64,000 nt of DNA, taken from the NCBI GenBank assembly GCA_051294375.1, contig CM119265.1, positions 2,827,292 through 2,891,291 on the forward strand, in the 5' to 3' direction. Each line of letters starts with the position of its first letter. Positions within the stretch are counted from its first letter, which is position 1. A program made the position numbers and the translations under genes. This DNA is from Paraspadella gotoi. Its lineage: Eukaryota > Animalia > Chaetognatha. This document shows, one piece after another, positions 1,421 to 58,871 of the stretch. Below the pieces are notes generated by a model. The model did no database searches and was not told the origin of the DNA. It was given only the letters and a program-made list of their open reading frames with translations.

Positions 1421-1457
<37 letters not shown>

Positions 1458-2476: not shown

Positions 2477-2507
<31 letters not shown>

Positions 2508-2510
2508 AAG

Positions 2511-2576
<66 letters not shown>

Positions 2577-2660
2577 AGTCAAAGGAAATACATTATAGAT
2601 TGTGAAGCGAATTGCCAGAAGCAAGGCTGTTGGAAAAAAGAGCAAGGACGGTGACACTTT

Positions 2661-2719
<59 letters not shown>

Positions 2720-3249
2720 TCTATGATGCAGTGTTGAGTAAAAAATGATGAAGCTTCATGAAAAATTCATTTGATTTCTTTTCTAGACACGGCTACTGGA
2801 GTGACTCTATAAATGGCTTTTCGATCTGTCAGTCCGTCTGTACGTCTGTCCATCTCTTTGACCGTTTACATATATTATATTGAAGCTAATACGATTGCGA
2901 GGTAATACGATTGCTAAGTAAAATTTGTTACGAAAAAAGGTTCTCACGTCTGAATCATGTGTTTTTGTAGATCCAATGAGAAAGAGGCAAGGATGAGGAG
3001 GAGGAAGAGGAGGAGGAGTAAGAGGAGAAGGAGGAGGAGGATGAGGAAACGCAGGCGAAATTTTCTCTATTAAAATCATAAACTTAAATCATATGTGAAA
3101 AAAGATGTTCTGGCCTGAATAAATATTAAATAATAAATAAATTATGCCGTGACATTGGTTTAATAGAAGACTGAATGTGGTTTCAAAACAAAAAGCTTTT
3201 TTGTTTTTCATTAAAAACAGAAGAACAACGGCTAATATGGATGGTGAGC

Positions 3250-3292
<43 letters not shown>

Positions 3293-6200: not shown

Positions 6201-6482
6201 TCGCAACTTTTTTATGGTAAAAATTTAATCGCAAGTTCATGATCGCACATCTTCCTTTGCTAATTGCTTATCACAAATATTTTATCGCAAATCTTCAATT
6301 GCAAATTCGTTAATCGCAAATCTTCAATTGCAAATTCGTTAATCGCAAATCTTCAATTGTAAATTCGCAAATCTTCCATTGCGCGGAATCTCATCTCTGG
6401 TTACAATCTTTCTGCTCAAATGCGTTGACGGGTTTCCGCTCTCGGTCTTATTGGCTCTTTTTTTCATCGACAAAATGAAAAT

Positions 6483-6568
<86 letters not shown>

Positions 6569-6641
6569 TACAGGCTGCAGCTGGTGTGAGATGTAATCTC
6601 CATGAAACTTTTTACTCTTTCTTTCTTTTCTCTCTCTCTCT

Positions 6642-6683
<42 letters not shown>

Positions 6684-17300: not shown

Positions 17301-20300
17301 AATAATTAAAATATAATATAATCTACAATTAATAGGGTAAAATTTTTAAGGGAACCTTTTTGATGATAAACAAATGAAGCTTGTTTGTGCAATATTGTCA
17401 GTTTACGAATCTGATACGAATGCTCTAACGATTGTAAAGCTTATCAGACATCAAATATTTGAAGGTAAGCATATTATATTTTTTTAAAATAAATTAATTT
17501 TTAAACAATCTTATATAATATCGATTCAAAAGAAAATCTACAAATATGAAGCAAATTACTTCTAAAAAATGGTGATAACATGAATTCACTAGATATTATA
17601 ACCCGATATAAGTATTTTGAATTATTTACTATTTTAAAAATTAAACTAATTTTATTAAATATAAATTAATAAATTCTAATACATTTTATTTATTAACATT
17701 CTAAGAAAATATAAGATTTCTCTAATGTGCGTACTAAATGATGAACGAAATCATTGCTTTTGAAATAATATTTAAATAAATAAATTTCGAGAACCATCCC
17801 CTCTCCCCTTAAGGACTTCCACAACATCGATGATCCGCCGATGTCACCATCCGGTCCTTGTCTCAAAGAGATGTCTTCAAAGAACAGGATTCAAGGTCAC
17901 GCCATGCTTCCGAGCGAAGCTTTGCTAAATTGCGTTACGCTTAAACGAAACTCGACGCGGCGCAAATTGGGAATCTGGAAAATCGAAGACTTCCCCAATT
18001 TTTTTTTCATCACTTTTCCACGAAACGAAGTAGAATTTATCAATTGAAAAAATATTTTTAAAAAATTGAATTAATGAAGTTGTAGTGGACCTAGAGGACT
18101 TGGGTTAAAGAGGGACGAGAGGCGCTTCATCACCCCCCCCTGCAGCCTTATCTTCAAAACTTAGGGACTGCTTATAATAATCGGTATCATCACACAATTA
18201 TATCATGTCTCTTCATACATTAATAATTAAGCTAATGAGGTTGTATAGTAGGGTGGAGTGATGAAAAAAATTGAGCGATTGAACATTATTTTTTGATGGC
18301 CTATGGACATGTAATTAATGAAATTTTTAAATCCTTTAAAAAACTTTTTTCGCCTAACATATAGTAATTCAATTATTTACGTAGTAAGGCAGTCGGATTA
18401 AGGCTGACAACGCCGCATAATTTTATTTGAAAAACTCACGGTATTTTTCGCTTTTAGAATTTTTATTATTTTTTCTTTTTTCTTTAATATTTCTTTTTAT
18501 ACATAATTAAAAATGATTGTTTCCCTTTTCAGAAATCTACCTATATACAAAATATCGCGTTGCAACAAAGTAAGAATGTCCCAAGGATTTTGAAAAATGG
18601 TGAGATAACCACTCTTCGAATTTATTTAATTGTAAAATTAGTACTAGTAATATTAGTATACTTAAACATTAATTTATACATGTTTAAAACAATAGATGAC
18701 TGCGACCCGGTGCGATTATTTTCTCTCATCTTCGAATGTATTCGTTAATGAAGAAAATATGTTTTGCCAAGATTAGTGAATGAGGGCTCTCGAATTTCTC
18801 AGAACGCACAGCCGTGCCGCGGAAGATGTAAAGCGTCGAGGCTTCGTCGATGTGAATGATGCCAGTTTTCCAAGGTTCTCCGTTTGGATGTTACGGAATC
18901 TCTGATTACGAACACGAAGGAAAGGAAACGACATTTTATTGATCGGCAAAATCAGAGTGTGGAGGAATTGCGACTGATGAGGGAAAACCAATGCAAACGG
19001 CTTGTATTGCTCCGTGGAACAAAAACCGTAAATGATTGGATAATTGTGATTCAAACTAATAACTATTCCTAATGTAAGAGTAAAATTTTTATTCTTTTTG
19101 TCGAACTGCTTTCTCATAAAACTAGTGTATAACGACGATATCAGTGGCTGGAAAAATGAGTAAATGACCTTTGCTAACTCAAAATTAAGCAAAAACATTA
19201 ATCAAATTGAAATTATTTTGTGCAGCATTTAATTTTGTTCAACGAGAACGATGAATGAAACTAATGAAAAAAAAAGAGTTTGTTTGAAATGTAAAACAGA
19301 CATTCAGGTTATTTCTAATGTCATATCATGTTGAAGACAAAATGAGTTATAAAATTATTATCATTATCTGTCTGTCCATCAATTGATCGAAGTTGACTAG
19401 CATTTTCTATTGAATGATAGAATTAACGATGATGACGATGATGATGCATGATGAATAAAGACCGAATAATGTGGAAGGCGATGATAACGTTGATTAATTA
19501 TGATGATAATGAAGATAATGAAGACAAAAAAATATAGTTTTTTTATCATTATTCTATGTGCTGTTACAATAATGGATTCAAAAACAGTGCATCGGTTTGT
19601 ATGTAAGATAGTTCAATGTTAATGGATAAAAAGTTTGACTAGAAAAAAGAGAAGCGAATAATTAAATAAATAATAAAATAAATAAATAAATAAATAAATA
19701 AATGAATGAGATCGAAATGATTGAGGTTAAATTATTAAATTCATTTTTAAAAGAAATTTAAAAACGGGTAGTTAGTAGTTACAAAAAGCTCATAATTTAC
19801 TATGCAACTCTCTGAAATGCAACAAAACATTTCTTTTTAATACCCGTAATTTTTCTAGAAATTTAAATAAAAGTTGTTAAATTTAAATTCATGTCTAAAA
19901 TTTCATTCAAAGTAATTTTGAATTAGCTTTATTACAAAATTCATTTAGGACAAAAATATTCTAAATTTTAAAAAAAATTATATAGCGGTTGTACCTAACA
20001 TAAAATGTTTCAAAATTACAAAAAAAAACTTTTGCCAAAAATTGATGTATTGTTTTTTTAAAAACTAAAGACAAAAATATGAAACTTTTTTCCCTGCCAG
20101 CGTTTATATGCAACTAACAATTCAAGATATCTTTAAACAATCAAGGTTTTAGCAGAACGCGCTAATAATATAATGCATATTTTAAGTTTTTTGCATAAAA
20201 AAATCTGAAATCAATAAAAAAATTCAGTCAAGAATCACGAAAATTGAGTTAAAAAAAAATCATGAATTTTCGTCTAAAATGAGTTGTTGGGGAGAGGGGG

Positions 20301-22975: not shown

Positions 22976-25900
22976 AGAGGATTGGCTGAGTTCGCGAGGG
23001 AGGCACAGCCCGGCCTCAGTCACGGGTCCGTCCATTTCTCTTTTATTCGTTCGTTCGTTCGTTCGTTCGTTCTATTGTTCGTTCGTTCGTTCGTTAGTTA
23101 GTTAGTTCCTTCCTTTATTCTTTTTATCATTCCGTTCTTTCATTTATTCGTTCTTTGGTTATTCGTTTAGTTTTATTAATTTTATTACTGTTCAGTTTTA
23201 AATATTGATTAATATCTTTATTATTAGGTATCAATTTGTTAAAAAATAGCAAAATCAAGAATTTCGTTCATTTTATTATAATAATTGATTAAGTTTCTTC
23301 CCTCACTACCTTTCTTTCCTTTACCTCTTCCTCCCACTCTTTTCTCTACTCACGCCCATTCCTACTCTCCACCGCCACCACCCTTTCCAACCCCCCAGAC
23401 TCAGAGTCCAGCTTCTCCCACTCGACGAGCCACTCCGCGCCGAGTTCCCCCAAAAACTCCCCCAAGACGGCCTTTCGTCGACGAAGGGTTTCGGGATCGT
23501 CCTCCAACTCGTCCATCTCTCATCATTCGTCTGAGTTGGACTGTCCCTTTAAGNNNNNNNNNNNNNNNNNNNNNNNNNAAAAAAAGAGAGAGGGATTCGG
23601 TGGGACTTTCCGGTTTGTCTTTGGCTGATTGCTCCGTTCTCGTTGCAGGGAGTAAACATTTGATACATATTGACTTTGCCTCTAGACAAATAATAGATTT
23701 CTGGTTTATATTTTTCTGGTTTATATTCTGGGTTTATACATCCGCTACTTTTTAAACTTCTTTTTACATTATTTTAAGCTCAAAAATGAATATAAAGTGC
23801 AAAATATTTATATTACCCTTTTCCTCTTACGATTAATGTTTCTTCTTTTCTCTTGTTTAATCTTAACAAATATAATCCTAGCCGTAAGTCCGAATTTAAA
23901 AATTTTGACTGTTTCAGTTTATGAAAACAATACACATAAATATAACCATAAAAATAAAAATAAAAATAAACCCATAAAATAAAAATAAACATAAAATAAA
24001 ATAAAAAATAAACCATAAAAATAGTAGGAAGCATTCTAAAAGTGAGTAAAGTAACTATATAATCTTCGCTAATTTTGTTAAATTTTGAAATGAAAATTCG
24101 ACATTTTACCAACTGAAGTTTACGTCGATTCAAACCAAAAATATCGAAAAGCTAAGAATCAATTCCAAAGTCGCTTGCGCAGTTTATTCTCAATTTAAGA
24201 AAGGAGTTGCTTTTTTCGTTCAAGTAGATTATTATTTAATTATTTAATTTTTAATTAATAATTAAATTTACCTATGCTAATTAATTTTTTGAAATAATTA
24301 AATTTATTTCAATATACAATCTAAAATAGGGTAAAATTTTTAAGGGAACCTTTTGATGATAAACAAATGAAGCTTGTGTGCAATATTGTCAAGTTTACCG
24401 AATCTGATACGAATGCTCTAACGATTGTTAAAGCTTATCAGACATCAAATATTGAAGGTAAGCAATATTATATTTTTTAAAATAAATTAATTTTTTAAAC
24501 AATCTTATAATAATATCGATTCAAAGAAAATCTACAAATATGAGCAAATTACTTCTAAAAAATGGTGATAACATTGAATTCACTAGATATTATAACCCGA
24601 TATAAGTATTTTGAATTAATTTACTATTTTAAAAATTAAACTAATTTTATTAAATATAAATTAATAAATTCTAATACATTTATTAAATTTATTAAATCTA
24701 AGAAAATATAAGATTTCTCTAAATGTGCGTACTAAATGATGAAACGAAATCATTGCTTTTGAAAGAATATTTAAAATAAATAAATTTCAGAACCATCCCC
24801 TCTCCCCTTAAAGGACTTCAACACATCGATGATCCGCCGATGTCACCATCCCGGTCCTTGTCTCAAGAGATGTCCTCAAAGACAGGGATTTCAAGGTCAC
24901 GCCATGCTCCGAGCGAAGCTTTGCTAAATTGCGTTACGCTTAAACGAAACTCGACGCGGCGCAAATTGGGAATCTGGAAATATCGAAGAACTTCCCAATT
25001 TTTTTTTCATCACTTTTCCCGAAACGAAGTAGATTTTATCAATTGAAAAAATATTTTTAAAAAATGAATTAATGAAGTTGTAGTGGACCTAGAGGACTTG
25101 GGTTAAGAGGACGAGGCGCTTCACACCCCCCCCTGCAGCCTTATCTCAAACTTAGGGACTGCTTATAATAATCGGTATCATCACACAATTATATCATGTC
25201 TCTTCAATACATTAATAATTAAGCTATGAGGTTGTATAGTAGGGTGGAGTGATGAAAAAATTGAGCGATTGAACATTATTTTTTTGATGCCTATGGACAT
25301 GTAATTAATGAATTTTTAAATCCTTTAAAAAACTTTTTTCGCCTAACATTATAGTAAATTCAATTATTTACGTAGTAAGGCAGTCGGATTAAGGCTGACA
25401 ACGCCGCATATTTTATTTGAAAAACTCACGGTTATTTTGTCCTTTTAGAATTTTTATTATTTTTTCTTTTTCTTTAATATTTCTTTTTTATACATAATTA
25501 AAAATGATTGTTTCCCTTTTCAGAAATTACCTATATACAAAATTCGCTTGCAACAAAGTGAAGAATGTCCCAAGGATTTTGAAAAATGGTGAGATAACCA
25601 CTCTTCGAATTTATTTAATTGTAAAAATTAGTACTAGTAATATTAGTATACTTAAACATTAATTATAACATGTTTAAAACAATAGATGACTGCGACCCGG
25701 GCGATTATTTTCTCTCATCTTACGAAGTATTCGTTAATGAAAGAAAAATGTTTTGCCAAGATTAGTGAATGAGCTCTCGACATTTTCTCGAACCACAACC
25801 GTGGCCGCGGAAGATGTAAAGCGTCGAGGCTTCGTCGATGTGATGATGCCAGTTTTCCAAGGTTCTCCGTTTGGATGTTACGGAATCTCGATTACGAACA

Positions 25901-31669: not shown

Positions 31670-33240
31670 TCAGTCGCAATTCCTCCACACTCTGATTTTG
31701 CCGATCAATAAAATGTCGTTTCCTTTCCTCGTGTTCGTAATCGAGATTCCGTAACATCCAAACGGAGAACCTTGGAAAACTGGCATCATCACATCGACGA
31801 AGCCTCGACGCTTTACATCTTCCGCGGCCACGGTGTGGTTCGAGAATGTCGAGAGCTCATTCACTAATCTTGGCAAACATTTTTCTTCATTAACGAATAC
31901 TTCGTAAGATGAGAGAAAATAATCGCCCGGGTCGCAGTCATCTATTGTTTTAAACATGTTATAATTAATGTTTAAGTATACTAATATTACTAGTACTAAT
32001 TTTACAATTAAATAAATTCGAAGAGTGGTTATCTCACCATTTTTCAAATCCTTGGGACATTCTTCACTTTGTTGCAAGCGAATTTTGTATATAGGTAATT
32101 TCTGAAAAGGGAAACAATCATTTTTAATTATGTATAAAAAAGAAATATTAAAGAAAAAAGAAAAAATAATAAAAATTCTAAAAGGACAAAATAACCGTGA
32201 GTTTTTCAAATAAAATATGCGGCGTTGTCAGCCTTAATCCGACTGCCTTACTACGTAAATAATTGAATTTACTATAATGTTAGGCGAAAAAAGTTTTTTA
32301 AAGGATTTAAAATTCATTAATTACATGTCCATAGGCATCAAAAAAATAATGTTCAATCGCTCAATTTTTTCATCACTCCACCCTACTATACAACCTCATT
32401 AGCTTAATTATTAATGTATTGAAGAGACATGATATAATTGTGTGATGATACCGATTATTATAAGCAGTCCCTAAGTTTGAGATAAGGCTGCAGGGGGGGG
32501 TGAAGCGCCTCGTCCCTCTTAACCCAAGTCCTCTAGGTCCACTACAACTTCATTAATTCATTTTTTTAAAAATATTTTTTCAATTGATAAAATTCTAACT
32601 TCGTTTCCGGGAAAAGTGATGAAAAAAAAATGGGGAAGTTTCTTCGATTTTCCAGATTCCCAATTTGCGCCGCGTCGAGTTTCGTTTAAGGCGTAACGCA
32701 ATTTAGCAAAGCTTCGCTCGGAAGATGGCGTGACCTTGAAATCCCTGTCTTTGAAGGACATCTCTTTGAGACAAGGACCGGATGGTGACATCGGCGGATC
32801 ATCGAGTTGTTGAAGTCCTTTAAGGGGAGAGGGGGATGTTTCTGAAATTTATTTATTTAAATATTCTTTCAAAAGCAATGATTTCGTTCATCATTTAGTA
32901 CGCACATTTAGAGAAATCTTATATTTTCTTAGATTTAATAAATTTATAGAATGTATTAGAATTTATTGAATTTATATTTAATAAAATTAGTTTAATTTTT
33001 AAAATAGTAAATTAATTCAAAATACTTATATCGGTTATAATATCTAGTTGAATTCAATGTTATCACCATTTTTTAGAAGTAATTTGCTCATATTTGTAGA
33101 TTTTCTTTTGAATCGATATATTATAAGATTGTTTAAAAAATTAATTTATTTAAAAAAATATAATATTGCTTACCTTCAATATTTGATGTCTGATAAGCTT
33201 TAACAATCGTAGAAGCATTCGTATCAGATTCGGTAAACTT
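31670..33240 (-). CDS. Unannotated spliced gene, possible discoidin/F5-8C or galactose-binding-like beta-sandwich domain; 5' exons uncertain (may reach ~34980)
   Basis: Phase-compatible GT-AG exons 32841-32600 (..RRGANWESGKSKKLPHFFFITFPGNE), 32101-32038 (KLPIYKIRLQQSEECPKDLKN) and 31941-31670 (DDCDPGDYFLSSYEVFV..CYGISITNT..LLIGKIRVWRNCD*); a further donor at 33173. Confidence 0.6.
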
Positions 33241-36696: not shown

Positions 36697-39600
36697 TTCT
36701 TCTACCTCTTTTTCCAAATATTTATTAATTTACTTTGAATATATCATTCTTGCTACTGACGATGACATATCTCATAATATACAATATATTATATTATAAC
36801 GCCAATTTTGAGAAAAAAAATTATTTATACATTTTTTTGTCAAAATCGCACAAAGCCTCTCAAGTTAACTTCTTTTGGCCAAGATTTCGCTGTTAAACAA
36901 ACATTAAGCTACAATAAAGTCGCCGACAATACTCTCGTCAATTTTATTCCTTTCCTTACCGGAAAATATCTCAAAGATTTGCCCTGGGATGAAACCAAAT
37001 CGAAACTACCCTGGGACAACTATCCCTTCATTTGGAAAAACTTTTCGGACAGAGGGTAAATACTAAATTGTGGCTGTATATTCACACCGCCTCACGTCCA
37101 GCTCATGGGTAAGAAGGTCTCAAGTTCAAACCCACGTATTCACACCGCCTCACGTCCAGCAGCGTTCAGCCAATCACATTGGCTCTCAGGGGGAACGCAC
37201 CATCCAGGGCGTTGCGTACCATCAACAGTCCTAACGATTTCCTTCTGGGTTGGCAAAGCGAGACCGTCCTAGGGGAACCGCGCCACTGACAGGAGGCGTT
37301 ACTGAGTGTCGGAAGCCCCCAAAGCCATCAGTAAGATGCCCCTTTCCAATGGGCATCACGGGCAACCCGGCTGTTACCATAAGAGCCCCTTTTCTCCTTT
37401 AATTCAGAATTAAAATTATTTTTAAGTTTAGTGATTTGGCTTAGAGATTAGGGTTAAGGATTTGGGTCAAGGGTTAGGGTTTAAAGTTAACAGATAAGGT
37501 TAGAGATCAGCGTTACGACTTAGGGATTCAAATGTATTAGTTTAAGGTATTAGGTCAAGGTCACAAGGTTAGGGGGCTGAGGGATTTTAAAAAATCAGGC
37601 TTAGATAATGAAAATAAAATTAAGTTGAGGCATTAAGAACAGAAATAGGGCACTTTTGGAAAATAGTGGCCAAAAATTCTCATTAACTTTTTTGTATTAT
37701 TTTTGTATTAAGTCAGCACTTGATAATAATTCCATTAGGTACTGGACTCTGTATGGTGAAGATTATTTCAGTATCAGTACCTTCAACTACATAAAGGAGG
37801 GTTTTCACCGGCAGCCCACAGACACTATTTTCGACCATTTTTACTGGCCTATGATAAATATCATAAATTAGAGTAAGTTCAACTCTGAGAATTATCTTAA
37901 TTTAATTCTCCGAAATTCATTTTCAAAATTGATTTTCTCCTTTGAATTGTAGTGGCGTATCGGCACCAAATGTTTTGGAAATCAAACTCAGGTTTGTTTT
38001 ATTTTTTTGATTTTTAGTGATGTAATATCACTACCCGTTGGATACCACTATTCCTTCCGTCAGCGTCCTAATAGCGCGCTTGTTTAACGCTTCATCTCCG
38101 AACCCAATGGGCATGGGTTCTAGCCCTGGTTGAACAGTCCTTGCAAAAAGAGTGACGGGCCGGTTAAACCACCGGTAGCAAACCTACATGGCAACTGACG
38201 GAAAAAGCTACCAGACCCACTCGGCACACTAAGTATGAGGCTATCCACAGTCACAGACAGGCATGGCGACCCTCTCTCCTCTTGGTCACTAAAATAATTG
38301 GTTTGAATTACTTCATAACATTCTTGTATACCTATTACCTAATAATTCATGTATAATAACTGGCAAGTTAAAGGGGTAGCAAGGATTTTCTGAAGAGCAC
38401 TTAATTATATTTAAGTAAGTGATGTAAAAGTATGTGACTAAAAAGTATTACCTTTAAATGATGCAGTACGTATTACCAGACTCGTGAGCATTTCCAAATC
38501 TAAATTGGACCGACCGATCAAAAGTAGACTAATCGGGTTCGTCCTCCAGTGAGTACTCAACAATTTTCCCTCGAAGGGCGATTGGCTCTACGATTGGTTC
38601 TTCAACGTCCTTCGATCTCGCGACGTCAGCGATCGAACTTTTGCTTTACTTTGGTCCAACTCTTGGTCGCATGAGGAGCTCCACGCGACCAGAGCAGCGG
38701 ACGAGCCCACGCTCCGACTGTTTAAGAGATTGAACGAGGGTGAGGGGGAATATTAGGAGCAATTGGGAGGATCTATTAATAAATAAATACTTAAAATAAT
38801 GAGTGAATGAATGAATTTATACATGATTGAATTAATGAATAAAAGAAAAAGGAATGAATGAATGAATTTTTAATTAAATAAATTATTCATTGATTAATCA
38901 ATAAATATATAGATGAATAAATGAATTATTTAATGAATGATTCATTGAATATATATTGAATATAAAAGTGAATTACAAAATGAATGAACTGAATAATTGA
39001 AGAAAATTTTTTTGACTCAATCAGTGAAATAATTAATTATGATGAAGATGATGATTGAGTGAAATACTGTATAACTAAACGAATCAACGAATCTCAATCT
39101 AATCAATAAAATCAATCAATCAATCAAACCAATCAAACCAATCAATCAATCAAATCTCCAAGCCAATCTTCTCTCCAACGCCATCGTCTTCTTCTTCTCT
39201 GACCACGGATTCCGATTCGGCGAAATCAGAGAAACTTTTGCCGGAAAATTCGAGGAGCGACTTCCCTTCCTCTACGTCCTTTTGCCGGAGAGGCTGCGGC
39301 GAAGTCGTCCCGAGTTGGTCGCCAATCTAGAGACGAACTCCCGTCGATTGACGACGAATTTCGATCTTTACGAGACGATGGTTCATCTCTTGGATATGGG
39401 AACTGGAAAGAAGAGAGGGTGAGGGATGAAATGGACAAAATTTGATTGATTGATTGGATTGATTGGATTTATTGATTGATTGATTTCTCTCTCCAGGTCA
39501 GAGTCCAATCCTCCTTTAGTCAATGGAACCAAATTTCGTTATTCCCTCTTCGATGAAATTCCAACGACAAGATCTTGTGCCTCAGCGACCATCAAGCGCC

Positions 39601-41436: not shown

Positions 41437-41563
41437 ATAAAGAAAATTTGGAGTCTTCGGCATTTTTAATTCATGAGGATAAGCTAAAGATTAAGGTGTT
41501 GTCGGTACATTGAAAAGTTATCAGTGATCACTGATAGGCCATCGATTATTATATTGATACTAC

Positions 41564-41760
41564 GGTGGACTAAAATCCACCAACCGTTCATCAGCGGCAG
41601 GAGGCGAGTCATTCGCTTCCCAACCAAAAGGTCCGGGGTTCTAGCCCGGTGGCTGCCTAACACGCCTGTAACACGATGTTACAGCCTTGTCCAAAGCTCA
41701 GGGACTGCTTAATAAGCAGTGCTTATATTGAACGGTTCTGTCACTAACTCATAACAATTA
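41564..41760 (+). mobile_element. Repeat family B: tRNA-like head with twister 3' half
   Basis: GGTGGACTAAAATCCACC hairpin, TCGCTTCCCAA..GGGGTTCTAGCCCGG, then TAA-CAC-GC-CTGTAACA/TGTTACAG-CCTTG-TCCAAAGC-TCAGG. Confidence 0.75.
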
Positions 41761-44539
41761 TTTCTCGAAAAAACCATAATTACTTTATATATATAGGTAA
41801 GTTAAACTATATCCTACATATACATTCATCCAATAAGCTATCTTACACCTTACTTTAGACAGGCTAGGGAGGGTTAAAATGATAAAATAGCGGGACTCTG
41901 CAAGCTTTCAATCAAGACTCTCTCACATTCTCATTTAAAAATACCAGAGCTATTGTCTTCTCTATCAATGAAATGGTAAAATAGATTTACTAACTGTTTC
42001 AATTGTAAGAAAAGAAATATAAAATAAAGACAAAAAAGAAAACTACCTTTCTTCAGTGGATTAGATACTAGAACTTTTTTCTTAAGAGTGTCGAGAAATT
42101 TCCATGGCAACTGATAGAAAAGTGATATTGAGACACGATAACATGAGTAATTTGGTTTTGAACGAGGACCTGATCGCGCATTAGATACATAAGCGGTGTA
42201 AAAATTTCGAAAGCGACTAGTAGAGACGAGGAGCGACGAGGAGCGAAAACATGCGCAATTTCTGCGGACCAGCTCCGTTAAATAATAAATTTCATGATGA
42301 AACCATGAAAACTACGCCTTTGTTCCCCAAGATTTGGAAAGTTCAGACACTGAACTATCCAGATGTCAAATAATAATGGTCAGTTAACGTTGTCTTCAAG
42401 TGCAAATTAATGCCTCCACTAAAAGTTGATTTTGGACTTTTTAAATTAGCCGATGAAATTTAAATGCTAATGTATACAGCGTTAAAATAATCTATCATGA
42501 CCATAGATTATGGTATTAAAATATTTTTTGTCAAAAATGCTTTCTTCTGAGGGTACTCGCCTAATTAAAAATATTATATTACTATATAGAGCAAAAATAT
42601 TTTTTTTAAATCTTAAAATTTTTTGATGGATTCTGATAGAGCATAAAAAGTTAAACAAGAAATATAATTACAGCTTTTAAAAATTATTACGTTTTCTAAG
42701 TGAAAATATAAAAAAAACTGATAAAATCATCGAAAGATGATGATGATGATGATTTTTTACAGTTTTTTTTTTTTTTGACACACTTATCATAAAAATATTT
42801 AAAAAAGAATCATACTTTGTGTAGACAACTTTTTATGAGTTATCTGAATCTGGTCTTAAAATTTAAAAATTCCAAACAAAATTTTTGGCCTTTCCTATCT
42901 ATAAATAAATATTAAAAAATTAATTACTAGGGTATAGAGCCATATTAGAAATTTTTTGTCCATTGAAAGTATTCTTAAAAATGTCTAAATATTCGTTTGA
43001 GCATGTACTCACTCTAAATTTTTGACTCACCCCATTGAGTGCGGCTACCTCATTATCTCATTAAATTTAATGAGATAATTTTAATAAGCTAAAGAGTTTA
43101 GCCGCTTGGCAAGACACTAAACTAATTATATGTTTTGTGATAAGTTATCTTTTTAGCACCAGCATTATACAAGGGATAGTTAAACTTGATGTAAATTCTT
43201 AAATGTAGTATTATGTTTTACTGGCTTTGTTTCATATCAAATCACCATATCTTATCACCTTTACCGATTTTATTTGTTCCCGCAAAGGAAGATACCAGGG
43301 ACGTTAGAGGTTCAAATACTAATAACACTTTTTAATTTATTTGTTGGGATCAGGTGCAAATATTGTAAAATATAGCAATGAACGGACATTTTCGAGTAGA
43401 GGACCAGTTTTAAAATGCATTAGAAATGAGTTCAACGATTGTCTTAGAGTAGGAAACTTGTAATAGGTTTAAAAATATTACTTATTATTTACAGTAAAAT
43501 ACAAAAAAAAGACAAATCATAGGAAAACCGCTCGCGGAGTAATCGTTTTAAATAGCTTTAAATACTACTAAACTATTTATGGATTTATGTTTTTCCACCG
43601 ATTTTAGATACTAAAATCCATGTACTATCAAAAACCATTCGTAGTTGGCAAGTATTTAAAGCGCTATTTGTGCAACTTTCGTAATGAACCAAAAAAAGCA
43701 GAAAAAAATTTTGATCGCTAGAATTTTTTTTCTTCGCGAAGCGACATATATATCTACCCAAAAGTCTAAACGTTTATTCTCGGTGACTGACGTGGCAAAT
43801 ATGTGACAAATGTAATAAATATTTCATCTTAAATAATTTTGAAATTTCAAATGTCAAATTTCTAATCAATATTTTTACACGATCAATTCTTTGAAGTCCA
43901 ATATTCATGATTACTTATGGGTTTTTTTTTTCTCTCTCTGTGTCTCTCTGTCTGTCTCTGATCTTTTATTCTACCAAATTTACAATTATTTTATAATAAA
44001 AAAAAATTGTCTTGAAAACAATTTAGTTTTTTCTTCACCCCTTCAAAATCGCAGTTAAAAAAAATTTTACTTAGTAAATGATTCTTATCGAAGTGTTAGA
44101 AAAAAAAATAATTTGAAAATCATTTTGGCATTTACTCATTTTGTGGATCCTGAACACATCAAGTGCGTTATAATATCAATGAGAATGGTAGTGATTCCCT
44201 ATGATTCCCTGTATATTCTAAGCTAGTTTTCAAAAACTCAGATAGAGTAAAACCTTTTTAGAACAAATTTGTATTTAATCCATACTAGGTATCTGGGTAT
44301 CCCGTTGTTTATCAAGATTTAAAAAAAAAGTAAATTCATCTTAAACTACCTGGAATATAGCTTGACAAAGTGAGCCTGAAATAGAGAAAAGCCTTATATC
44401 TCTTAAAGAAATGATTTTTGACAACTGATATTGCTTGAGAGGTTTCCGATGATAGTCACTAATTAATTAAAAGCATATATATTTTTGTACGATGAACTAA
44501 CCTTATTCCAATAAAAAAAAATATTTCGATGATAGTGAA

Positions 44540-47500
44540 ATGCAGCAACGACTATTGTGCAAAAACCGCTTCTTCATCTTCTTCGTCGTCGTCGTCGTCG
44601 CTTTCGTCTTTGGAAGTTTTTATTCGGGGTTTTTGCGCTTTGAAAATTTTGGATTCAATTCGTGGGAAGCCTCGTTTCCGATTCATTCCGTCAATTTCTC
44701 TGGTAAACAAAAACAAAAGATCAAATAATTTTATCAACGTGATTATAAAGATTCACAGATATTCATAATTCATGTTTTACAGAGATTCATAAATCCTCAT
44801 TCACAGAGTCTCATGATAACTCAGTCACATTCGGAAACGAGGCGAAGGAAGGATTCGACGTCTTCACACCCGGATGTAAAATTCCCACCGTTGATCCCTT
44901 CGATCCATCGCTCAGTCACATCAAATTGAAGGGTGAGATCAATTACGAATAGAAAACACGTATGAAATTGACCTTGCAGTAAAGACAGGATATATTGGCA
45001 ACTATATTTGGGCACCCTGACCCTTCATTAGTGTGCCCAGTTGGTCTGAAGCTTCGGAACTGGTTGTTTAATCATAACCGTCAGTCAAATGAATACACAG
45101 TTCCGTCCAGGGGCAAAACCCGCGACAAATGGGTACAAGAGATGAAGCGTTAGCTCTATGGAGTTATGACAAGATGAAAATTAACGCGGCAAAACTGTCC
45201 CACGTAAATTCTTATCGTATTTCACAATCTCAACTACTACAGCGCGGCAGAACTGGAGAGTGATGTGAAAATGATAAAATTTTAGAAAATTAAAATTTAG
45301 CATATAAAACATGAAAATAAAAACCAATAAAAATACTTTAGTAAGTTTATTTTTTAATTTTATTCATTAGTGGCACCCAGTGAGCTATATTTATATATAG
45401 TAATAAGTATATTATAAGCTAAAATTTTAAAATGTAAATTTTTAAATTTTAAGATCGGATTTGGATTTCTTGCTAAAAGTTAATACAAGAAATTCTTTTT
45501 TTAATTTTTTCATTAAGTTGGTTAAAAATGTAAAAAAATGTATTTAAGATGCAGATTTTCAATTTTAAGCTTAAAAATATAGTTTTTTATAATTTTAACC
45601 TACCAACTTTTATCAACTTTTATCAACTTTTAACGAGGAAACTGAATCTGTTCTCAGAATTTTAAAAAAAACATTTTAAAGTTTTGACATTATATAAGGT
45701 ATATACAAAATTAGCTGACTGGGCTACTATATTTGTAAAAAATATATATATTTCCAGATTAGTATTCACTAATATGATAGTTTTCAAGATATATTTGCTA
45801 AATTTTGATTCCAAACTTTCACTTCACCCTGCTGGAGAGTTTTATTCTACGAGTTATAATATTTTGATGTTAATTTAAATTTATTAAACTCCAGGGGAAA
45901 AAAAGACAAACGAATGCAGCAAAACTCGACGATTTCTTGTGAAGAATTTAAAAGAAAATTCGATTCGTTTGAACGAAAAGGAAAAAGGAGAAAAACTAAG
46001 AATTAAATCTTGTGAAATCAAAACTGTGAAGCGGCGAAACGATCGGACGGAATGGACGGACGCGCGGACATTTCGTGCGGACGCCTGCGTAAGTCAAGAG
46101 AATTAATTTAATAAACTAAATATGTAAACTTATAATCCACTGGTCAAATCAAATTTTAATATGTATCCGGATTTTATTTTAATAAAATTTTATTTAGAGT
46201 AAATAATTTTTGAAAAACTTAATTGATTTTTCAATTTGTCTTCACCAAAGGTCAACATCTCCGGCGACTTTTCACTGATCATTTGTTTCGACAAGATCGT
46301 CGAGCCCGCTTCCAAGAATTCGTCGTCGCGGCTTTAGATGATAAAACAAAAGACAAAAGAGACCAAAGACTCTGGATTCGACGTTTTGCTCATCGGCGTC
46401 GATTCTGTATCGAGAAATAATTTTGTTAGAAATTTCCCGAAGACTCGAAAATTCCTCTTCGATAATTTGGAACCCGTGGAATATTTTGGGTAATTTAGAC
46501 TTGAAATAAAGGTTCGAACTTCATACCAAATAGTACAAGATAGAGTTCAGGTCTACCTGCTTGCAAATCCTAACGCATTGGAAGCATTCTTTACCATTTT
46601 ATATCGCTTATGGAAATAACGTCAATTGAAATTTAGCTATGGTTAAAATCCGAAATTTGTATCCAGTTACTTTCCATATTTGTACTATTCTATAAATGGT
46701 ATGTATTTACAATTTAGAGTACCTCTTCTTAATTTTCAAGGTACAACAAAGTTGCCGACAATACCCTGGTTAATGTTATTCCATTTCTCACTGGAAAATA
46801 TCTTGAAGACTTGCCCTGGACAGAAAAAATGGCTCATTTGCCTTTTGATATATATCCTTTCATTTGGAAAAATTTTTCAGATAAGGGGTAAGTTAATGCA
46901 GTGTATTCGAAGAATTAGAATTAAAACTTTATGGTTATATTGTTAGAAAATAAGTTACGCATGTATATTTTTTTTTGTATGTAAAAACTGTTTTAATCCA
47001 GATACCGCACTTTCTACGGAGAAGACTCTCACAGCATTAATACCTTCAACTACCAAAAAGCTGGATTTCATTCTCAACCAACTGATTATTACTTCCGTCC
47101 ATTTATATTGGCTTATGAGGAATTAGAAAAGAAAATGGGCCTAAGGTACATAGTTATGTGGTTTTTTCCATAGTTTCCTAAAACTGATATGATTAAGCTT
47201 TTTTTTCCCAACCTTTTTAGAAATAGATATACTTTCTTGTCTTGCCAATACTGAAAAGTTCAGCAATTTTTAGATATATCGAGTTTACAATATACTAAAG
47301 CAGCTTTTGAATATGTATTAATGATATATATTGAGCATCTTCTAATAATATGTATAATAATATTAAAATAATTATATTAATAAAATTTTCAGCCAAGAAT
47401 CTCGAACGAATGCTTTGGATATCAAACTCAGGTAAAAGATCACGTTCTATTATAAAATTAATTTATACACACTGCACAGTAGGGTGGAGTGATGAAAAGA

Positions 47501-49899
47501 TTGAGCGATGTAACATGTTTTTTTGCTGCCTTGGTATATGTAATAAAAAATAATTAATCCTTTTTTTCAAAAAAATTTGGTTTAACCGTATTATGAATGA
47601 ATTTTCTTTATAGTAATTTATTGTAATTTATTGTATTTATTTATTTTTTGTAATATCCTTATAAACATCATATTTTTTAATTTTAAGAACAGTTTCGGAT
47701 TCGCCGCGAAAAAACTTAAATATAAGTTAAATATGTTACATGATATTTTTAGGTTAAAGCTGCGAAAAATGACCAAAACGTTTAATCATATAGTAGTTTT
47801 TACTACAGAGCATGAAAAAGTGGAAAACTTGGCCTTTTTTTTTCCATTTTTGACGCTGACGACATTGAAATTTAATAACATATTATGGTTGACTAAAATC
47901 CACAACGCTTCATCAGCGGCCATTGGTGCCGGAGGCAAGTCATTCGCCTCCCAACCCAAAGGTCCGGGGTTCTAGCCCGGTTGTGGCCTCGCTGTTAAGA
48001 GGGATGGGGCGCTTAACCCGCCTGATCCAAAGCTTTAGGGACTGCTTATATTGAACGTTCTGTCACTAATTCATAACAATAATTATTGTCTCTTCATTGG
48101 TGAGCCGACTTCCAAACATAACAGCAACAACAACACTTTCAGGCGACATGCCTCAACCTGGCGATGCACTTTACGCCAACAACACATCAGTCGACATGAC
48201 TTGGTGACAAACTTTCCACCAACAACAATTAACAGAAGAGACAAAACAGACTTTTCCCAACGGGGGGGGGGATGTATGGTGGACTAAAATCCACCAACCG
48301 TTCATCAGCGGCCATTTGTGCCGGAGGGCAAGTCATTCGCCTCCCAACCCAAAGGTCTGGGGTTCTCGCTGCGGACGGGGCGCTTAACCCGCCTGTAACA
48401 CGGTGTTACAGCCTGATCCGAAGCTCAGGGACTGTTTATATTGAACGGTTCTGCACTAACTCATAACAATAATTACTGTCTCTTCAAGGCTAATAATAGA
48501 TTAATATTTATATATCTCTCAAAATCCGCAGGGCGAATGGCTGTACGACTATTTTCTCGAGTTTCTTCGAACTCACAAAAACGAAAAGAAATTCGCTTTC
48601 GTTGACGAACTCTTGGTCGCACGATAAAGTCTACGACGCCGCTTTGGCCGATGAGCCGACGGAAAAACTCTTTCACAGATTGAAACAGGGTCAGTTGTTG
48701 GAGAAACTGCGAATACTGGTCGCATACTACGTATTTTGAATCGTACAACTTATACATTTTGCAACTCTATCATTTGATAAAATATATTTTTTAAGAAAGT
48801 TTGTCGAATTTTTCTAAGACTTAAATTTTTTGTTAAGAATTACTTTTAATTTTAAAACGGATTTTACCTTAGAACCTACGTGGACTGAATTTAGTCATTG
48901 CTCAGTTTTAAATTCTTTTTTAAATCAGGCGGCTTCTTAGAAAATTCCATTGTGATTTTCTTCTCTGATCACGGCTTCAGATTTGGTCAAATCAGAGAAA
49001 CTTTCGTGGGAAAATTCGAAGAGCGTCTTCCTTTCCTTTTCTTTCTCGCGCCCAAAAGATTCAAGAAAGATCATAGAGGGCGTTACGAGAATTTGAAGAA
49101 AAATGCACGAAGACTGACAACCAATTTTGACATTTATCAAACTCTGGTGGATCTTTTGGATTTAGGGTCTATGAAAGAGACGAGGTACGTAGTATGAATG
49201 GTCAATATATAATTATATATTTTATATATTTTTTGATTTTTTAGAGTATTTTGCCAGCTTTTTTTGTTCATTTTCTTTCATTTTTGTGATATAATAGAAG
49301 ATTCAACTAATCAAAAATTTTTGTATGAAAGAATGATACAACCCTATTTAAATTTTTTTTTCGAAATAATTTACGCTTTTAAAATGAGTCAAAAGTAGTT
49401 TTTGTCAAACATATGAGGTAATATTTTTTTAAAGTATATGTTATAAAATAACGTTAAAGATTTAAAATGCTAAAATTTTTCTTACTTATACTATTATAAA
49501 ATTCTTGTATGATTTTTCGTATAAAGAGGCAAGGAAAACTCTCCTTTTGTCAACGGAATCCAATACCGCTATTCGCTCCTTGATGAAGTTCCTCCAGAAA
49601 GAAATTGTGAATCGGCAACGATCAAACCTCATTGGTGCGTCTGTCAATCTATGAAACGAGTCGATGTTAAAGATAAAGATGTCACTAAAGCTGGACAATT
49701 CATCGTTCAACAGGTTTTGGATATTTTATTTATTGGATAAAGAATAGTTGGTGTGCTAGAAAAACTAAGATGTGATTTTATTCATCTGTGATGATATTTT
49801 TTTCCGCTCAATAGAGAAGTGCAGAAATAATTGTAAAGTTTTAAAACTGACCACTTATTCACTTTTGTTGCAACTTTTTCGCCTCTTTAGTTTAATTAA

Positions 49900-54863: not shown

Positions 54864-55292
54864 TCATCGATATGCACGACGAGGCGATCTCGAGCGGTAG
54901 CGTTCGTAGGATCGCGACCGGGAGCGCGACCTTCTCCTTGGCGGCGGCGAGTAGCGTCGATAGTCGTCACGACCGTCCCGTCCGTCCCGGCCGTCCCGTC
55001 CATCGCGCCCGTTGTCCCTCGGTCGACCACGCCCACCACGTCCGCCGCCGTGCGAGATTTCGACGCGAACTCTGCTGGAACCGATGCGCGTCCCGTCTAA
55101 TTGTCGACAGGCGTCGCCGGCGTCGCGAGGATCTTCGAACTCGACGAAGGCGAAGCCGGGTGGATTCTTCGCCACCCAAACTGACTTTAAGGCGCCGACT
55201 TTGGAGAAGGGCTCGCGAATTTCGCCCTCTGTGGCCCGGGGATCTAGGTCACCCACGTAGACCTTGGCTTCGTTGAAGGGGCGACGGGACAT
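54864..55292 (-). CDS. SR splicing factor, SRSF3/SRSF7 (Rbp1/9G8)-like, single coding exon
   Basis: [46 protein letters not shown] followed by RD/RS repeats; no zinc knuckle; ATATAAA on the minus strand at ~55363-55369. Confidence 0.92.
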
Positions 55293-56351: not shown

Positions 56352-58323
56352 ATGTCTTCCCCTCCCGCCCGACTCTTTCCCGGAGTCGGCCTCCTTCTCG
56401 CATTCGTGGACGTTACCTGCATCACTTACGGCGAACTCTTGGTCGTAGTGACGCCGCGGTTGTCGGCGCTCACTTTCGCCTGGATCGACGCCGCCGCTTT
56501 CGCCGTCTTCCTCGTTCCAGTCTTCGCATTCGGACGCCGGAATCCGTTGGCGCCAAAGCGGCGCGATTTGGCGCTTTTATTCTTCAACGGTGAGTTTAGA
56601 GTAATGAAAATTCTATATTTTGATCGAATTACATACATATTTATTAAATGAATGGATAGTATTTTGATGCTGGGCGGAGTACAATTTAGTATTCCCCGAT
56701 CTAATACTTAAGATAGTGGTCTTTTCATACAATTAAAATATTCTTTCAAACATTATACTACTCCCTGATAGGGAGGCCAAGAACCTGCTATGTACCTCTG
56801 TCGTTATCTTGTAAGAGTGATGGAGGCCTTAAACCACCAAAGCCTGTCCAAAGTCAGGGGCAAGATAGCTTATTTATCAAATGAATGGATAATTTTTATA
56901 TTGTTTGTACCAATTTCATACAATTCTCACAGTTAGAGGTAGCGAGAGAAAGAGAGAGAGGGAGAGAGAAAGAGAGAAAGCCGAGAGGAAACAAAGGGAG
57001 AAGGGGTCGTCTAGAGGTTGTCTTCTCCTAACCAGCGTGGGTAATATTCGTCCCCACGACCCACGACCCACTAATCTAAACAAACGTCACTTCAAACTCC
57101 AGGTTCCAGCGAAGTATTTTGTCACGTGTTCGCGATTGCGTCTGTGCAATTAGCGCCTCTCGGTGACGTCGTGGCATTGTGGAGCGCGGCCATCGTGATG
57201 GTGCCCTTGGTCGAGTGCCTCGTGGATCTGCGGGGCCAATGCGAGGATCCTCGGGACCAACGCTTGAATAGACGTTGCCAATGCGACGACGCCCTTCGTC
57301 TTGCCTTCGTCGTTTTAGCCGTCGTCGGCGTCGTCGTCGTTTCGTCGTCGTTTCGTCTTCGGAGACGCCAAGACGATCGACCTCGGGCGACGCCTGGTGG
57401 GTTACGCCTACGCCATCGGCAACGCCATCGCCGCCACGCTCAGCTATGTCATGGTGGCCCAGTTGAGTCACGTGCAATTGGGCAGTCGTGGATGTTTACT
57501 TCGTTCCCGCCGCGGTCTTGGTGAGAAATTTGGTTCACTTTGTAAATTGTAAAGTTTAAATGTTTTATATTTTTTTATATATCAAAGCCAATTTAGCAGC
57601 GGTACCCAGCTGAAGACTCTTTGCCCATCCATTGGCTAATAGTCTAATCTCTATAATTGCCTCTCTCTCACTCTTTCTCATTAATTCTTTCTCACTGTGA
57701 CTCTCTCTTTTCCTCAGTTATTGTTAAAAACGCTCATTTACACCCCGAGGTCGTGGTCCTTATAATATTCTCCTTTCAAAAACAGAAAATTTCCTGTCTG
57801 TCATGAAATATTTTATTAACTGGCATTGCGGTTAATAATATCGGTTTGAAGAGACAGTAATTATTATTATGTGTTAGTGACAGAACCTTTGTTTGTCGGT
57901 TAAATGGTAAATACGTCGTCCTAATCTAATTCATCATAATAAGTTTATAACCCACTCCTGCCTCTTTTGACCTACTTCTTCCGCCTCTCCCCCGCCGCAT
58001 CCGCCGCTGCAGCGCCGCTTCCCCGCGATTACTTAGCAGCCGCCGTCTCCGGTCTCCTCGACGTCATCGGATGCTCCTTCGGCGTTCTCTCCCAACAGAT
58101 CGTCAGCGCCTCCACCGTGACGCTCATCGGGTCTTTGGAGATCCCCTTGGGCTACTTGCTGGACTTTGTCTTCACTGGAGAGACGCCTTCGTGGAGCACG
58201 TTGGGCGGAGCAGGGCTCATCGCTGTCTCTGTTGTCGGGTCGTCGATAGTTGAAATCGTTAAAGAGAAGGAGGAAGAGGATCATTTAGAATTAGAAAAAA
58301 AGAAATTGTTGAATCAAATCTAA
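56352..58323 (+). CDS. EamA/DMT transporter, SLC35G-like
   Basis: Hydrophobic exons 56352-56589, 57103-57520 (ASVQLAPLGDVVAL) and ~57960/58013-58323 (SASTVTLIGSLEIPLGYLLDFVFTGETPSWSTLGGAGLI); apparent 1-bp insertions in exon 2. Confidence 0.75.
56638..56922 (+). repeat. Family A dispersed copy containing an intact putative twister (56803-56869)
   Basis: 43-nt core identical to 10891-10933; P5 extends to 10 bp (56803-56812/56860-56869); other parts of the monomer are deleted or diverged. Confidence 0.8.
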
Positions 58324-58573: not shown

Positions 58574-58871
58574 AGTGATGTAATATCACTACCCGTTGGA
58601 TACGACTGTTCCTGCCATCAGCGCCGTAGTCACGCACTGGGATAACGCTTCATCTCTGAACCCACTGGTCACGGGTTCTAGCCTTGGTTGGAACAGTCCT
58701 TGCAAAAAAAAAAGTGAGGGGCGGGTTAAACCACCAGTAGCAAGCCTACCGCGGAATCCAAAGTTCCAGAAAGCAAAGCAACTGTCGGAAAAATCTCCCA
58801 GACCCACTGAGCGCACTAAGATTGGCTGTTATCCACACTCGCAGAGAGGGATGGCGACCCTCTCGGTCACT
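58574..58871 (+). mobile_element. Repeat family C: hairpin, tRNA-like head and twister-like core (58694-58784); diverged reverse piece at ~45010-45160
   Basis: AGTGATGTAATATCACT hairpin; GGGTTCTAGCC; AGT-GA-GGG-GCGGGT-TAA-ACC-AC-[GTAG/CTAC P3]-GGAA-TCCAAAGT-TCC. Confidence 0.72.

What the first reader, a model, noticed from the sequence alone, without database searches (positions are those of the whole stretch)
47887..48486. tRNA-headed SINE-like elements with a twister downstream, arranged head-to-tail in a sense intron
Seen: family B is a 5' hairpin (GGTGGA-CTAAAA-TCCACC), A/B-box-like segments (TGGTGCCGGAGG; GGTTCTAGCC) with TCGCCTCCCA resembling a tRNA-Gly anticodon arm, then the twister, then a TGTCTCTTCA tail. 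The two predicted cut sites (48014/15 and 48385/86) are 371 nt apart. The first copy lacks P3 and the second lacks the P5a/P2' region. Inference: an internal Pol III promoter plus a ribozyme mirrors Sm-alpha; the ~180-nt spacer may be the rest of the monomer; sense-strand intronic pairs may persist only once crippled.
Basis: partly seen in the sequence, partly recalled or inferred. Interest (0 to 1): 0.72.

Follow-up and report, generated by a model that had tools for sequence, protein, structure and literature searches.

The report
Animal mini-retrotransposon with twister-ribozyme LTRs
The two repeats are likely the paired ends (LTRs) of a small, gene-less, multi-copy retrotransposon of an invertebrate, and each end holds a tRNA-like piece followed by a predicted twister-type self-cutting RNA, which would make it an animal counterpart of the ribozyme-carrying LTR elements so far described from plants.

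Summary
In detail: two decayed ~212-nt repeats (47884-48096, 48275-48486) lie in sense in a DUF229 intron, each with a tRNA-like part and a twister-like core; predicted cuts are 371 nt apart. The SINE reading is probably wrong. The 178-nt spacer starts with a primer-binding-site-like TTGGTGA(G)CC right after the first repeat's final CA and ends in an 11-purine tract just before the second repeat. In public runs it is high-copy, and contigs of other copies bridge both junctions. This is the LTR-PBS-internal-PPT-LTR plan of a TRIM, closest to Helenus (tRNA-like LTRs), with a P5-type twister-like fold added in each LTR. A second family in the window keeps the same fold with two compensatory pairs. 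Likely mechanism: Pol III read-through, a cut in each LTR, a monomer without terminal redundancy that is ligated to a circle and copied by a Gypsy RT, as in plant LTR retrozymes. Against: no target-site duplication in 0 of 4 window insertions, the core departs from canonical twister (no P1, short P2, A-U for an invariant G-C), Rfam finds no twister, and nothing shows transcription or cleavage. New variant of a known kind; interest 0.68.

The parts
47884..48096 (+). 5' repeat (likely 5' LTR), 213 nt, TATGG...TCTTCA; decayed hairpin, tRNA-like part, twister-like core lacking P3
   Evidence: ends from loose-end places
47916..47987 (+). tRNA-like segment: acceptor-like stem (5 of 7 pairs in this copy), T-arm-like 5-bp stem; A-box-like 47924-47935, B-box-like 47968-47977
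   Evidence: not called by ARAGORN or Rfam
47991..48045 (+). P5-type twister-like core of LTR1; predicted cut after 48014; P3 deleted
48097..48274 (+). 178-nt internal region, non-coding, high-copy, with an internal ~45-nt direct duplication
48098..48109 (+). PBS-like sequence directly after the repeat's final CA; resembles the tRNA-Trp PBS listed for Gypsy-32_NVi and Helenus-2_SyJa
   Evidence: (Fig S2 of PMC10886601)
48262..48272 (+). PPT-like 11-purine tract, followed by TG and then the second repeat
   Evidence: stays all-purine in the variant table
48275..48486 (+). 3' repeat (likely 3' LTR), 212 nt; intact hairpin, tRNA-like part truncated by deletion, twister-like core
48373..48436 (+). 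twister-like core of LTR2: GA, U^AA (cut after 48385), both pseudoknots, P3 8 of 8 and P4 5 of 5 pairs; P5 5' strand missing, P2 broken
47432..48531 (+). host intron of a DUF229 gene (sense orientation)
41561..41765 (+). third family-B copy, internally deleted and 3'-truncated, downstream of the first DUF229 gene
32420..32545 (-). decayed family-B copy (same locus appears again at about 25090-25206 and 18100-18215 through a fold-back duplication)
57847..57890 (-). 3' fragment of family B with the same 6-mer on both sides
38016..38290 (+). family A copy (AGT...ACT ends, tRNA-like part, twister-like core lacking P4/L4)
58574..58871 (+). family A copy with a near-complete twister-like core that covaries with family B

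Best explanation
The locus is likely one decayed copy of a non-coding miniature LTR retrotransposon (TRIM) whose two LTRs each hold a tRNA-like segment followed by a predicted P5-type twister ribozyme, and it would likely spread as an LTR retrozyme. Shown: two repeats around a high-copy 178-nt internal part that begins PBS-like and ends PPT-like, and a twister-like pairing pattern. Inferred steps: Pol III starts at the tRNA-like boxes of the 5' LTR and reads through; the ribozyme in each LTR cuts, leaving a roughly 390-nt monomer (371 nt in this deleted copy) with no terminal repeat; a host RtcB-type ligase closes it; a tRNA (Trp-like) primes a Gypsy reverse transcriptase at the PBS, which runs round the circle and rebuilds both LTRs; the PPT primes the second strand; a Gypsy integrase inserts it. 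Both cores at this locus are broken, so this copy is probably inert.
For: PBS-like TGGTGA one base after the final CA (chance about 0.001 for a fixed edge) and an 11-purine tract two bases before the second repeat (about 0.0008); layout matches Helenus internal parts, which start t-tgg and end in a G-tract plus 1-3 letters. Spacer summed depth 225,056-736,606 in X1 against 189-411 on the next exon; same pattern in X2 and X5, weaker in X6. Diverged contigs bridge tail-to-spacer (X5 48037-48165, X6 48043-48182, X5 48057-48159) and spacer-to-head (X2 and X6 48118-48320, X1 48215-48309) with 31 or more letters each side. Sharp ends with unlike flanks at 48275 (143, 128, 94, 28 contigs in X1, X2, X5, X6) and 48486 (76 in X1, 88 in X2). 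Both repeats share a minority state in the P5 5' strand, as expected of LTRs from one insertion. Twister-like: U^AA, GA, 3-bp and 2-bp pseudoknots, P3, P4, P5 pair; family A keeps the frame with A-U for C-G in P2 and A-U for G-C in the 2-bp pseudoknot, and unrelated but paired P3 and P5. No variant of 15% or more at 48376-48432, so this core is the family's usual form. P1 is dispensable for cleavage (PMC5408937).
Against: No 4-6-bp target-site duplication in 0 of 4 insertions tested (the pair, the 32420 copy, two family A copies). The 57847 fragment looks 5'-truncated between 6-bp repeats (about 1% by chance per test), which is a non-LTR signature. The integrated 5' end is TA, not TG. The core has P2 of 2 Watson-Crick pairs plus C.A (canonical 4, and changes in P2 length were suggested to disrupt the site), no P1, and A-U where a G-C is essentially invariant; Rfam gives no twister match at E 10. 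No listed contig spans the whole LTR-internal-LTR unit. The cognate primer tRNA and the autonomous partner were not found (no genome). No evidence of transcription, cleavage or circles.
Confidence: 0.55

Rival explanations
1. Helenus-type TRIM whose twister-like fold is inactive or only weakly active; it transposes by ordinary strand transfer between repeated R regions of an uncut Pol III transcript, and the fold is a relic of a captured SINE or a packaging or 3'-end signal.
For: All LTR evidence above; three departures from the twister consensus; no Rfam hit; the motif pattern was not found in viral, metagenome or prokaryote contigs; Helenus is proposed to arise from SINE insertion into an LTR (PMC10886601).
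Against: Compensatory pairs between families A and B in P2 and the 2-bp pseudoknot, and a conserved GA, UAA and AAG frame across two otherwise unlike families, suggest selection on the fold.
Confidence: 0.25
2. Sm-alpha-like or non-LTR retrozyme: a tRNA-headed, ribozyme-cut tandem unit (repeat plus spacer) inserted by target-primed reverse transcription through a LINE or Penelope enzyme, the PBS- and PPT-like stretches being incidental.
For: 0 of 4 insertions with a short duplication; truncated copy between 6-bp repeats; 5' end not TG; the promoter lies near the 3' end of the cut-to-cut unit, as in Sm-alpha (PMC6765202).
Against: Both signals sit exactly at the repeat edges (joint chance about 1e-6); ends are sharp with no tail; animal retrozymes are described as lacking LTR, PBS and PPT (PMC7229834, PMC7761336).
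Confidence: 0.15
3. Two independent SINE insertions around an unrelated insert.
For: The repeats differ at 13 of 191 aligned sites and the pair has no duplication.
Against: The spacer is high-copy and joined to the repeat at both ends in other copies; the two repeats share a minority state.
Confidence: 0.03

Closest known systems
Helenus / TRIMp3 (Kojima 2024, PMC10886601; main text parts 1-4 of 6, supplement parts 1, 6, 8, 10 of 11 and term searches read)
   Same: Under 1 kb, non-coding, two LTRs each with a tRNA-like segment, PBS after the 5' LTR, PPT before the 3' LTR, many solo LTRs; Trp-type PBS occurs (Helenus-2_SyJa); some consensus LTRs start TA.
   Different: About 110 nt with a twister-like fold follow the tRNA-like part; 'twister' occurs 0 times in that paper and 'ribozyme' only in a reference; in the consensus LTRs that I read by eye the part after the tRNA is short and mostly T-rich. 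4-bp duplications not seen here.
Plant LTR retrozymes (Cervera 2016, PMC4918200; passages read)
   Same: Ribozyme in each LTR, PBS, PPT, non-coding middle, cut-to-cut monomer without R repeat, proposed circle intermediate and Gypsy helper.
   Different: Plants; type III hammerhead; tRNA-Met PBS; LTRs 300-400 bp; monomer 600-800 nt; no tRNA-like promoter in the passages seen. Here an animal, twister-like, 212-nt LTRs.
Schistosome Sm-alpha and animal non-LTR retrozymes (PMC6765202, PMC7229834, PMC7761336, bioRxiv 10.64898/2026.07.22.740005; passages read)
   Same: Small animal repeat with a ribozyme; Pol III promoter near the 3' end of the cut unit (Sm-alpha).
   Different: Hammerhead, tandem arrays, no LTR, PBS or PPT; linked to Penelope-like elements.
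T-variant twisters of Perere-3 (Liu 2021, PMC8501958; abstract, sections 3 and 17 read)
   Same: Twister with weak or absent P1 in a retrotransposon.
   Different: Type P1, at the 5' end of an autonomous RTE non-LTR element; no tRNA-like part, no LTR.
Type P5 twister ribozyme (PMC5408937; passages and section 11 read)
   Same: Permutation opened in P5; U^A site, GA, two pseudoknots, P3, P4.
   Different: P1 replaced by a 6-nt linker, P2 one pair short with a conserved C.A, A-U closing L4; no Rfam match.

Membership tests
Helenus (TRIMp3) | Two direct LTRs around a short non-coding internal part, under 1000 bp | tested here: met
   603 nt; repeats 213 and 212 nt; 0 Pfam families in the 2 open frames over the spacer
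Helenus (TRIMp3) | tRNA-like sequence inside the LTR with box A (TRGCY...YGG) and box B (GGTTC) | tested here: inconclusive
   GGTTC present, T-arm 5 pairs, acceptor 5 of 7 pairs; box A fits only 3 of 5 and 2 of 3 letters; no ARAGORN or Rfam call
Helenus (TRIMp3) | PBS directly after the 5' LTR, complementary to a host tRNA 3' end | tested here: inconclusive
   Position right; 12 of 14 letters match the listed Trp PBS, part of the depth has the missing base; the host's own tRNA could not be checked
Helenus (TRIMp3) | PPT directly before the 3' LTR | tested here: met
   11 purines at 48262-48272, chance about 0.0008
Helenus (TRIMp3) | 4-bp target-site duplication (animals) | tested here: not met
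   0 of 4 window insertions; only a family-level hint of an ATAT-like target in loose ends. Hence 'works like Helenus', not filed as a member
Helenus (TRIMp3) | Pol III transcription and a Gypsy partner with the same PBS | not testable with these tools
   no genome; no raw RNA reads
Twister ribozyme | U^A site in UAA, catalytic G followed by A, L4 of U-NNN-AAG-C type | tested here: met
   both LTRs and family A at 58574
Twister ribozyme | Two pseudoknots (3 bp and 2 bp) | tested here: met
   3 of 3 and 2 of 2 pairs in each LTR; family A 2 of 3 and 2 of 2 with a compensatory pair
Twister ribozyme | P2 of four Watson-Crick pairs | tested here: not met
   two pairs plus C.A in LTR1 and both family A copies
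Twister ribozyme | P1 stem (conserved, dispensable in vitro) | tested here: not met
   6-nt linker, at most one G.U pair
Twister ribozyme | Essentially invariant G-C pair extending P4 | tested here: not met
   A-U in both families
Twister ribozyme | Rfam twister model match | tested here: not met
   none at gathering score or at E 10; all window copies are damaged
Twister ribozyme | Self-cleavage | not testable with these tools
   bench test needed
LTR retrozyme | Hammerhead ribozyme in each LTR | tested here: not met
   no hammerhead match; twister-like fold instead
LTR retrozyme | LTRs, PBS and PPT around a non-coding middle | tested here: met
   PBS is Trp-like, not Met
LTR retrozyme | Abundant circular monomer RNA | not testable with these tools
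   only contigs were served
tRNA-derived SINE / Sm-alpha | Element starts at the tRNA head and ends in an A-rich or repeat tail, or forms hammerhead-cut tandem arrays without PBS and PPT | tested here: not met
   32 nt precede the tRNA-like part, end is a sharp CA, PBS- and PPT-like signals present

The most novel reading that the evidence does not exclude
An animal LTR retrozyme: a Pol III-driven TRIM whose LTRs carry an active, P1-less P5-type twister that cuts a ~390-nt RNA, which is circularised and retrotransposed by Gypsy machinery; at least two such families with a shared natural mini-twister variant exist in this genome in very high copy.
Probability: 0.33. Interest if true: 0.85.

Novelty: new variant of a known kind. 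Interest (0 to 1): 0.68.

Why it matters
Published accounts place LTR retrozymes in plants (hammerhead) and describe animal retrozymes as lacking LTR, PBS and PPT; Helenus TRIMs are described without ribozymes. A tRNA-promoter TRIM with a twister in each LTR would join these lines, give the twister class a second retrotransposon role, show that the ribozyme-plus-circle route to LTR rebuilding arose independently with another ribozyme, and supply a natural P1-less, short-P2 twister that standard models miss. It is testable with one cleavage assay and one outward-facing RT-PCR.

Tried and rejected
No genome is held, so no genome-wide count, TSD census or strand-bias test. Exact-pattern scans found nothing: viral contigs, metagenome contigs, prokaryote genomes. 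No RNA holder listed; X6 is only guessed to be RNA and was not used as evidence of expression. Summed contig depth is not a copy number, so I give none. Absence of T4 runs in the element is not significant at its GC content (P 0.22-0.58). The pseudoknot difference between the two LTRs (UGG/CCA against CGG/CCG) is two CpG-type transitions and was not counted as covariation. Minimum-energy folds of the cores do not show the twister fold (z -0.3 to -0.6), as expected for pseudoknots; the natural cut-to-cut piece folded as a circle is only mildly stable (z -2.1, 60 shuffles). Several helix registers were mis-indexed (P3, P4, acceptor) and were redone; the hairpin registers tried for LTR1, the 41561 copy and family A were also off and are not used. 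The idea that published Helenus consensus sequences hide twisters found no support: four loop motifs gave only a few hits, and the three passages shown for them were not in a twister context; 3 sequence parts read by eye showed none; the other sequence parts were not read. A joint from 48098 to 48272 (one contig each in X1 and X5, side 27) looks like an LTR-LTR junction but is too short to use. The host could not be named: protein hits are insects, ticks and a crustacean at 45-66% and unnamed records up to 79%; an invertebrate, likely an arthropod. Helitron and tyrosine-recombinase readings were considered from recall because of the missing duplications and dropped: neither explains PBS and PPT.

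Full report
Observation. The window is eukaryotic (U1 snRNA at 724-886; spliced DUF229 genes). They lie in sense in an intron from GT 47432 to AG 48531; the exons read ...GYQTQ and GEWLYDY..., neighbouring exons hit DUF229, and the frame break in the downstream exon is likely an assembly error because laid contigs show gaps there. Hairpin, A- and B-box-like segments, the two U^AA sites 371 nt apart, the loss of P3 in copy 1 and of the P5 5' strand in copy 2 are all as described. The tRNA-like part has an acceptor-like stem and a T-arm but no anticodon stem; ARAGORN and Rfam do not call it, so its parent tRNA is unknown. Three more family B loci occur in the window (41561, 32420, 57847); the 32420 copy appears three times through a fold-back duplication and is counted once.

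The spacer. It begins one base after the first repeat's final CA with TGGTGA and ends with 11 purines two bases before the second repeat. Such a purine tract ends at a fixed edge with chance about 0.0008 and TGGTGA starts there with chance about 0.001; the longer PBS-like pattern occurs once in the window. It matches 12 of 14 letters of the tRNA-Trp PBS listed for Gypsy-32_NVi and Helenus-2_SyJa (PMC10886601 Fig S2). Nine public runs of one organism in three studies hold the region; four were laid (contigs only). Summed depth on the spacer is 225,056-736,606 in X1 against 189-411 on the next exon, 23,047-184,542 against 37 in X2, 10,867-59,274 against 0-14 in X5, and 977-7,128 against 0-147 in X6; the tool warns that this is no copy number. 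Among the 32 of 28,104 and 16 of 10,405 pieces listed, three diverged contigs bridge repeat-tail to spacer and three bridge spacer to repeat-head with at least 31 letters on each side; none spans the whole unit. So the spacer travels with family B.

Ends. Contigs with long unlike flanks leave the sequence at 48275 (143, 128, 94, 28 contigs in four runs) and at 48486 (76 and 88 in two runs). The unit is therefore TATGG...TCTTCA, with sharp ends, no tail, and 32 nt upstream of the tRNA-like part. Published Helenus internal parts likewise end in a G-tract plus 1-3 letters, and some Helenus LTRs start TA. The last four loose letters on the left read ATAT in 5 of 6 rows (two rows repeat a run) and the right ones begin C-T in 2 of 2 rows where A is excluded by construction; ATAT is a known 4-bp Gypsy target (PMC3276498, passages). 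This is only a hint. Per copy, 0 of 4 insertions show a 4-6-bp duplication. For the pair a one-sided deletion could explain it: the left flank is another high-copy repeat that other copies leave at 47884, and the right flank does not continue it; that is inference. The 57847 fragment lies between 6-bp repeats (about 1% by chance), which points to target-primed insertion and counts against the LTR reading.

The ribozyme. The order GA, pseudoknot strand, linker, U^AA, P2, GC, P3, P4 with a U-NNN-AAG-C loop, P5 is that of a twister opened in P5 (domain table in PMC8501958 section 17; PMC5408937). In LTR2, P3 has 8 of 8 and P4 5 of 5 Watson-Crick pairs and both pseudoknots pair fully; in LTR1 both pseudoknots pair and P5 has 4 of 5. 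No variant of 15% or more lies in 48376-48432, and the variant tables show that most depth carries pairing bases in P5 and the acceptor stem where the window copies do not. Family A (38016, 58574), with a different head and tail, keeps the frame, swaps C-G for A-U in P2 and G-C for A-U in the 2-bp pseudoknot, and has unrelated but paired P3 and P5; its P4 pairs 3 of 5 in the homologous register. Against canonical twister: P1 is replaced by a 6-nt linker (P1 is dispensable in vitro), P2 has two pairs plus a conserved C.A instead of four pairs, and the pair closing L4 is A-U instead of an essentially invariant G-C. Rfam finds no twister. I put the chance that intact copies cleave at about 0.6.

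Mechanism. Shown: the architecture and the pairing pattern. Inferred from the plant retrozyme model (PMC4918200, passages) and Helenus: Pol III read-through from the 5' LTR, a cut in each LTR, loss of terminal redundancy, ligation (RtcB closes animal retrozyme RNAs in vitro; PMC7229834, passages), tRNA-primed copying round the circle, PPT-primed second strand, Gypsy integration. If cleavage is weak or absent, the uncut transcript has repeated ends and can use ordinary strand transfer (rival 1).

Novelty. Searches of the paper library for retrozyme+twister+LTR, twister+SINE+tRNA, TRIM+tRNA+Pol III, type P5, twister+LTR retrotransposon, ribozyme+LTR+animal+TRIM, Helenus and retrozyme since 2021 listed no paper whose title, abstract or read passages describe a twister in an LTR or an animal LTR retrozyme; most listed papers were seen only as listings. 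The 2026 preprint on animal retrozymes has 0 occurrences of 'twister' and 'tRNA' in its main text (its supplements are closed). Roth et al. 2014 and Repbase were not available to me, and six of the sequence parts of the Helenus supplement were not read, so an unremarked precedent is possible. Earlier notes of this scan list Helenus-type elements without mention of a ribozyme in the lines shown and no look-alike sequence.

Verdict. Works like a Helenus-type TRIM crossed with an LTR retrozyme; not filed as a member of either because the duplication and hammerhead tests were not met. Architecture as a TRIM about 0.8; active ribozyme about 0.6; full circle-based cycle about 0.33. New variant of a known kind; interest 0.68.

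Noticed in passing
window 38016-38290 and 58574-58871: Family A: a second tRNA-headed repeat with AGT...ACT ends (the end type of errantivirus-group LTRs in PMC5408687), a 5' hairpin and the same twister-like core; possibly solo LTRs of a sister family.
   Followed up: partly
window 37994-38576 and 47432-48531: The matching intron of two tandem DUF229 paralogues each holds a different twister-like element in sense (family A in one, the family B pair in the other).
   Followed up: no
window 45010-45270 (- strand): A diverged relative of family A that keeps GA-CGG and TAA-AC motifs; possibly a third family.
   Followed up: partly
window 37075-37390: Another GC-rich, tRNA-like-headed insert with a 24-nt duplication in a DUF229 intron; not classified.
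   Followed up: no
window 15100-35500: A 7-kb tandem duplication followed by an inverted copy with small indels; looks like a fold-back assembly artefact.
   Followed up: partly
window 47478-47884: A separate high-copy AT-rich repeat directly upstream of LTR1; one single-copy contig joins it at 47871 to a family B tail in opposite orientation, and its start also follows the 32420 copy.
   Followed up: partly
window 724-886: U1 snRNA gene (Rfam 156 bits).
   Followed up: no
window 10600-11750: Tandem ~320-bp repeats of a dispersed family with many partial copies in the window.
   Followed up: no
window 54864-55289 (- strand): SRSF3/7-like RRM protein read in one open frame; EamA-like exon at 57943-58323.
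   Followed up: partly
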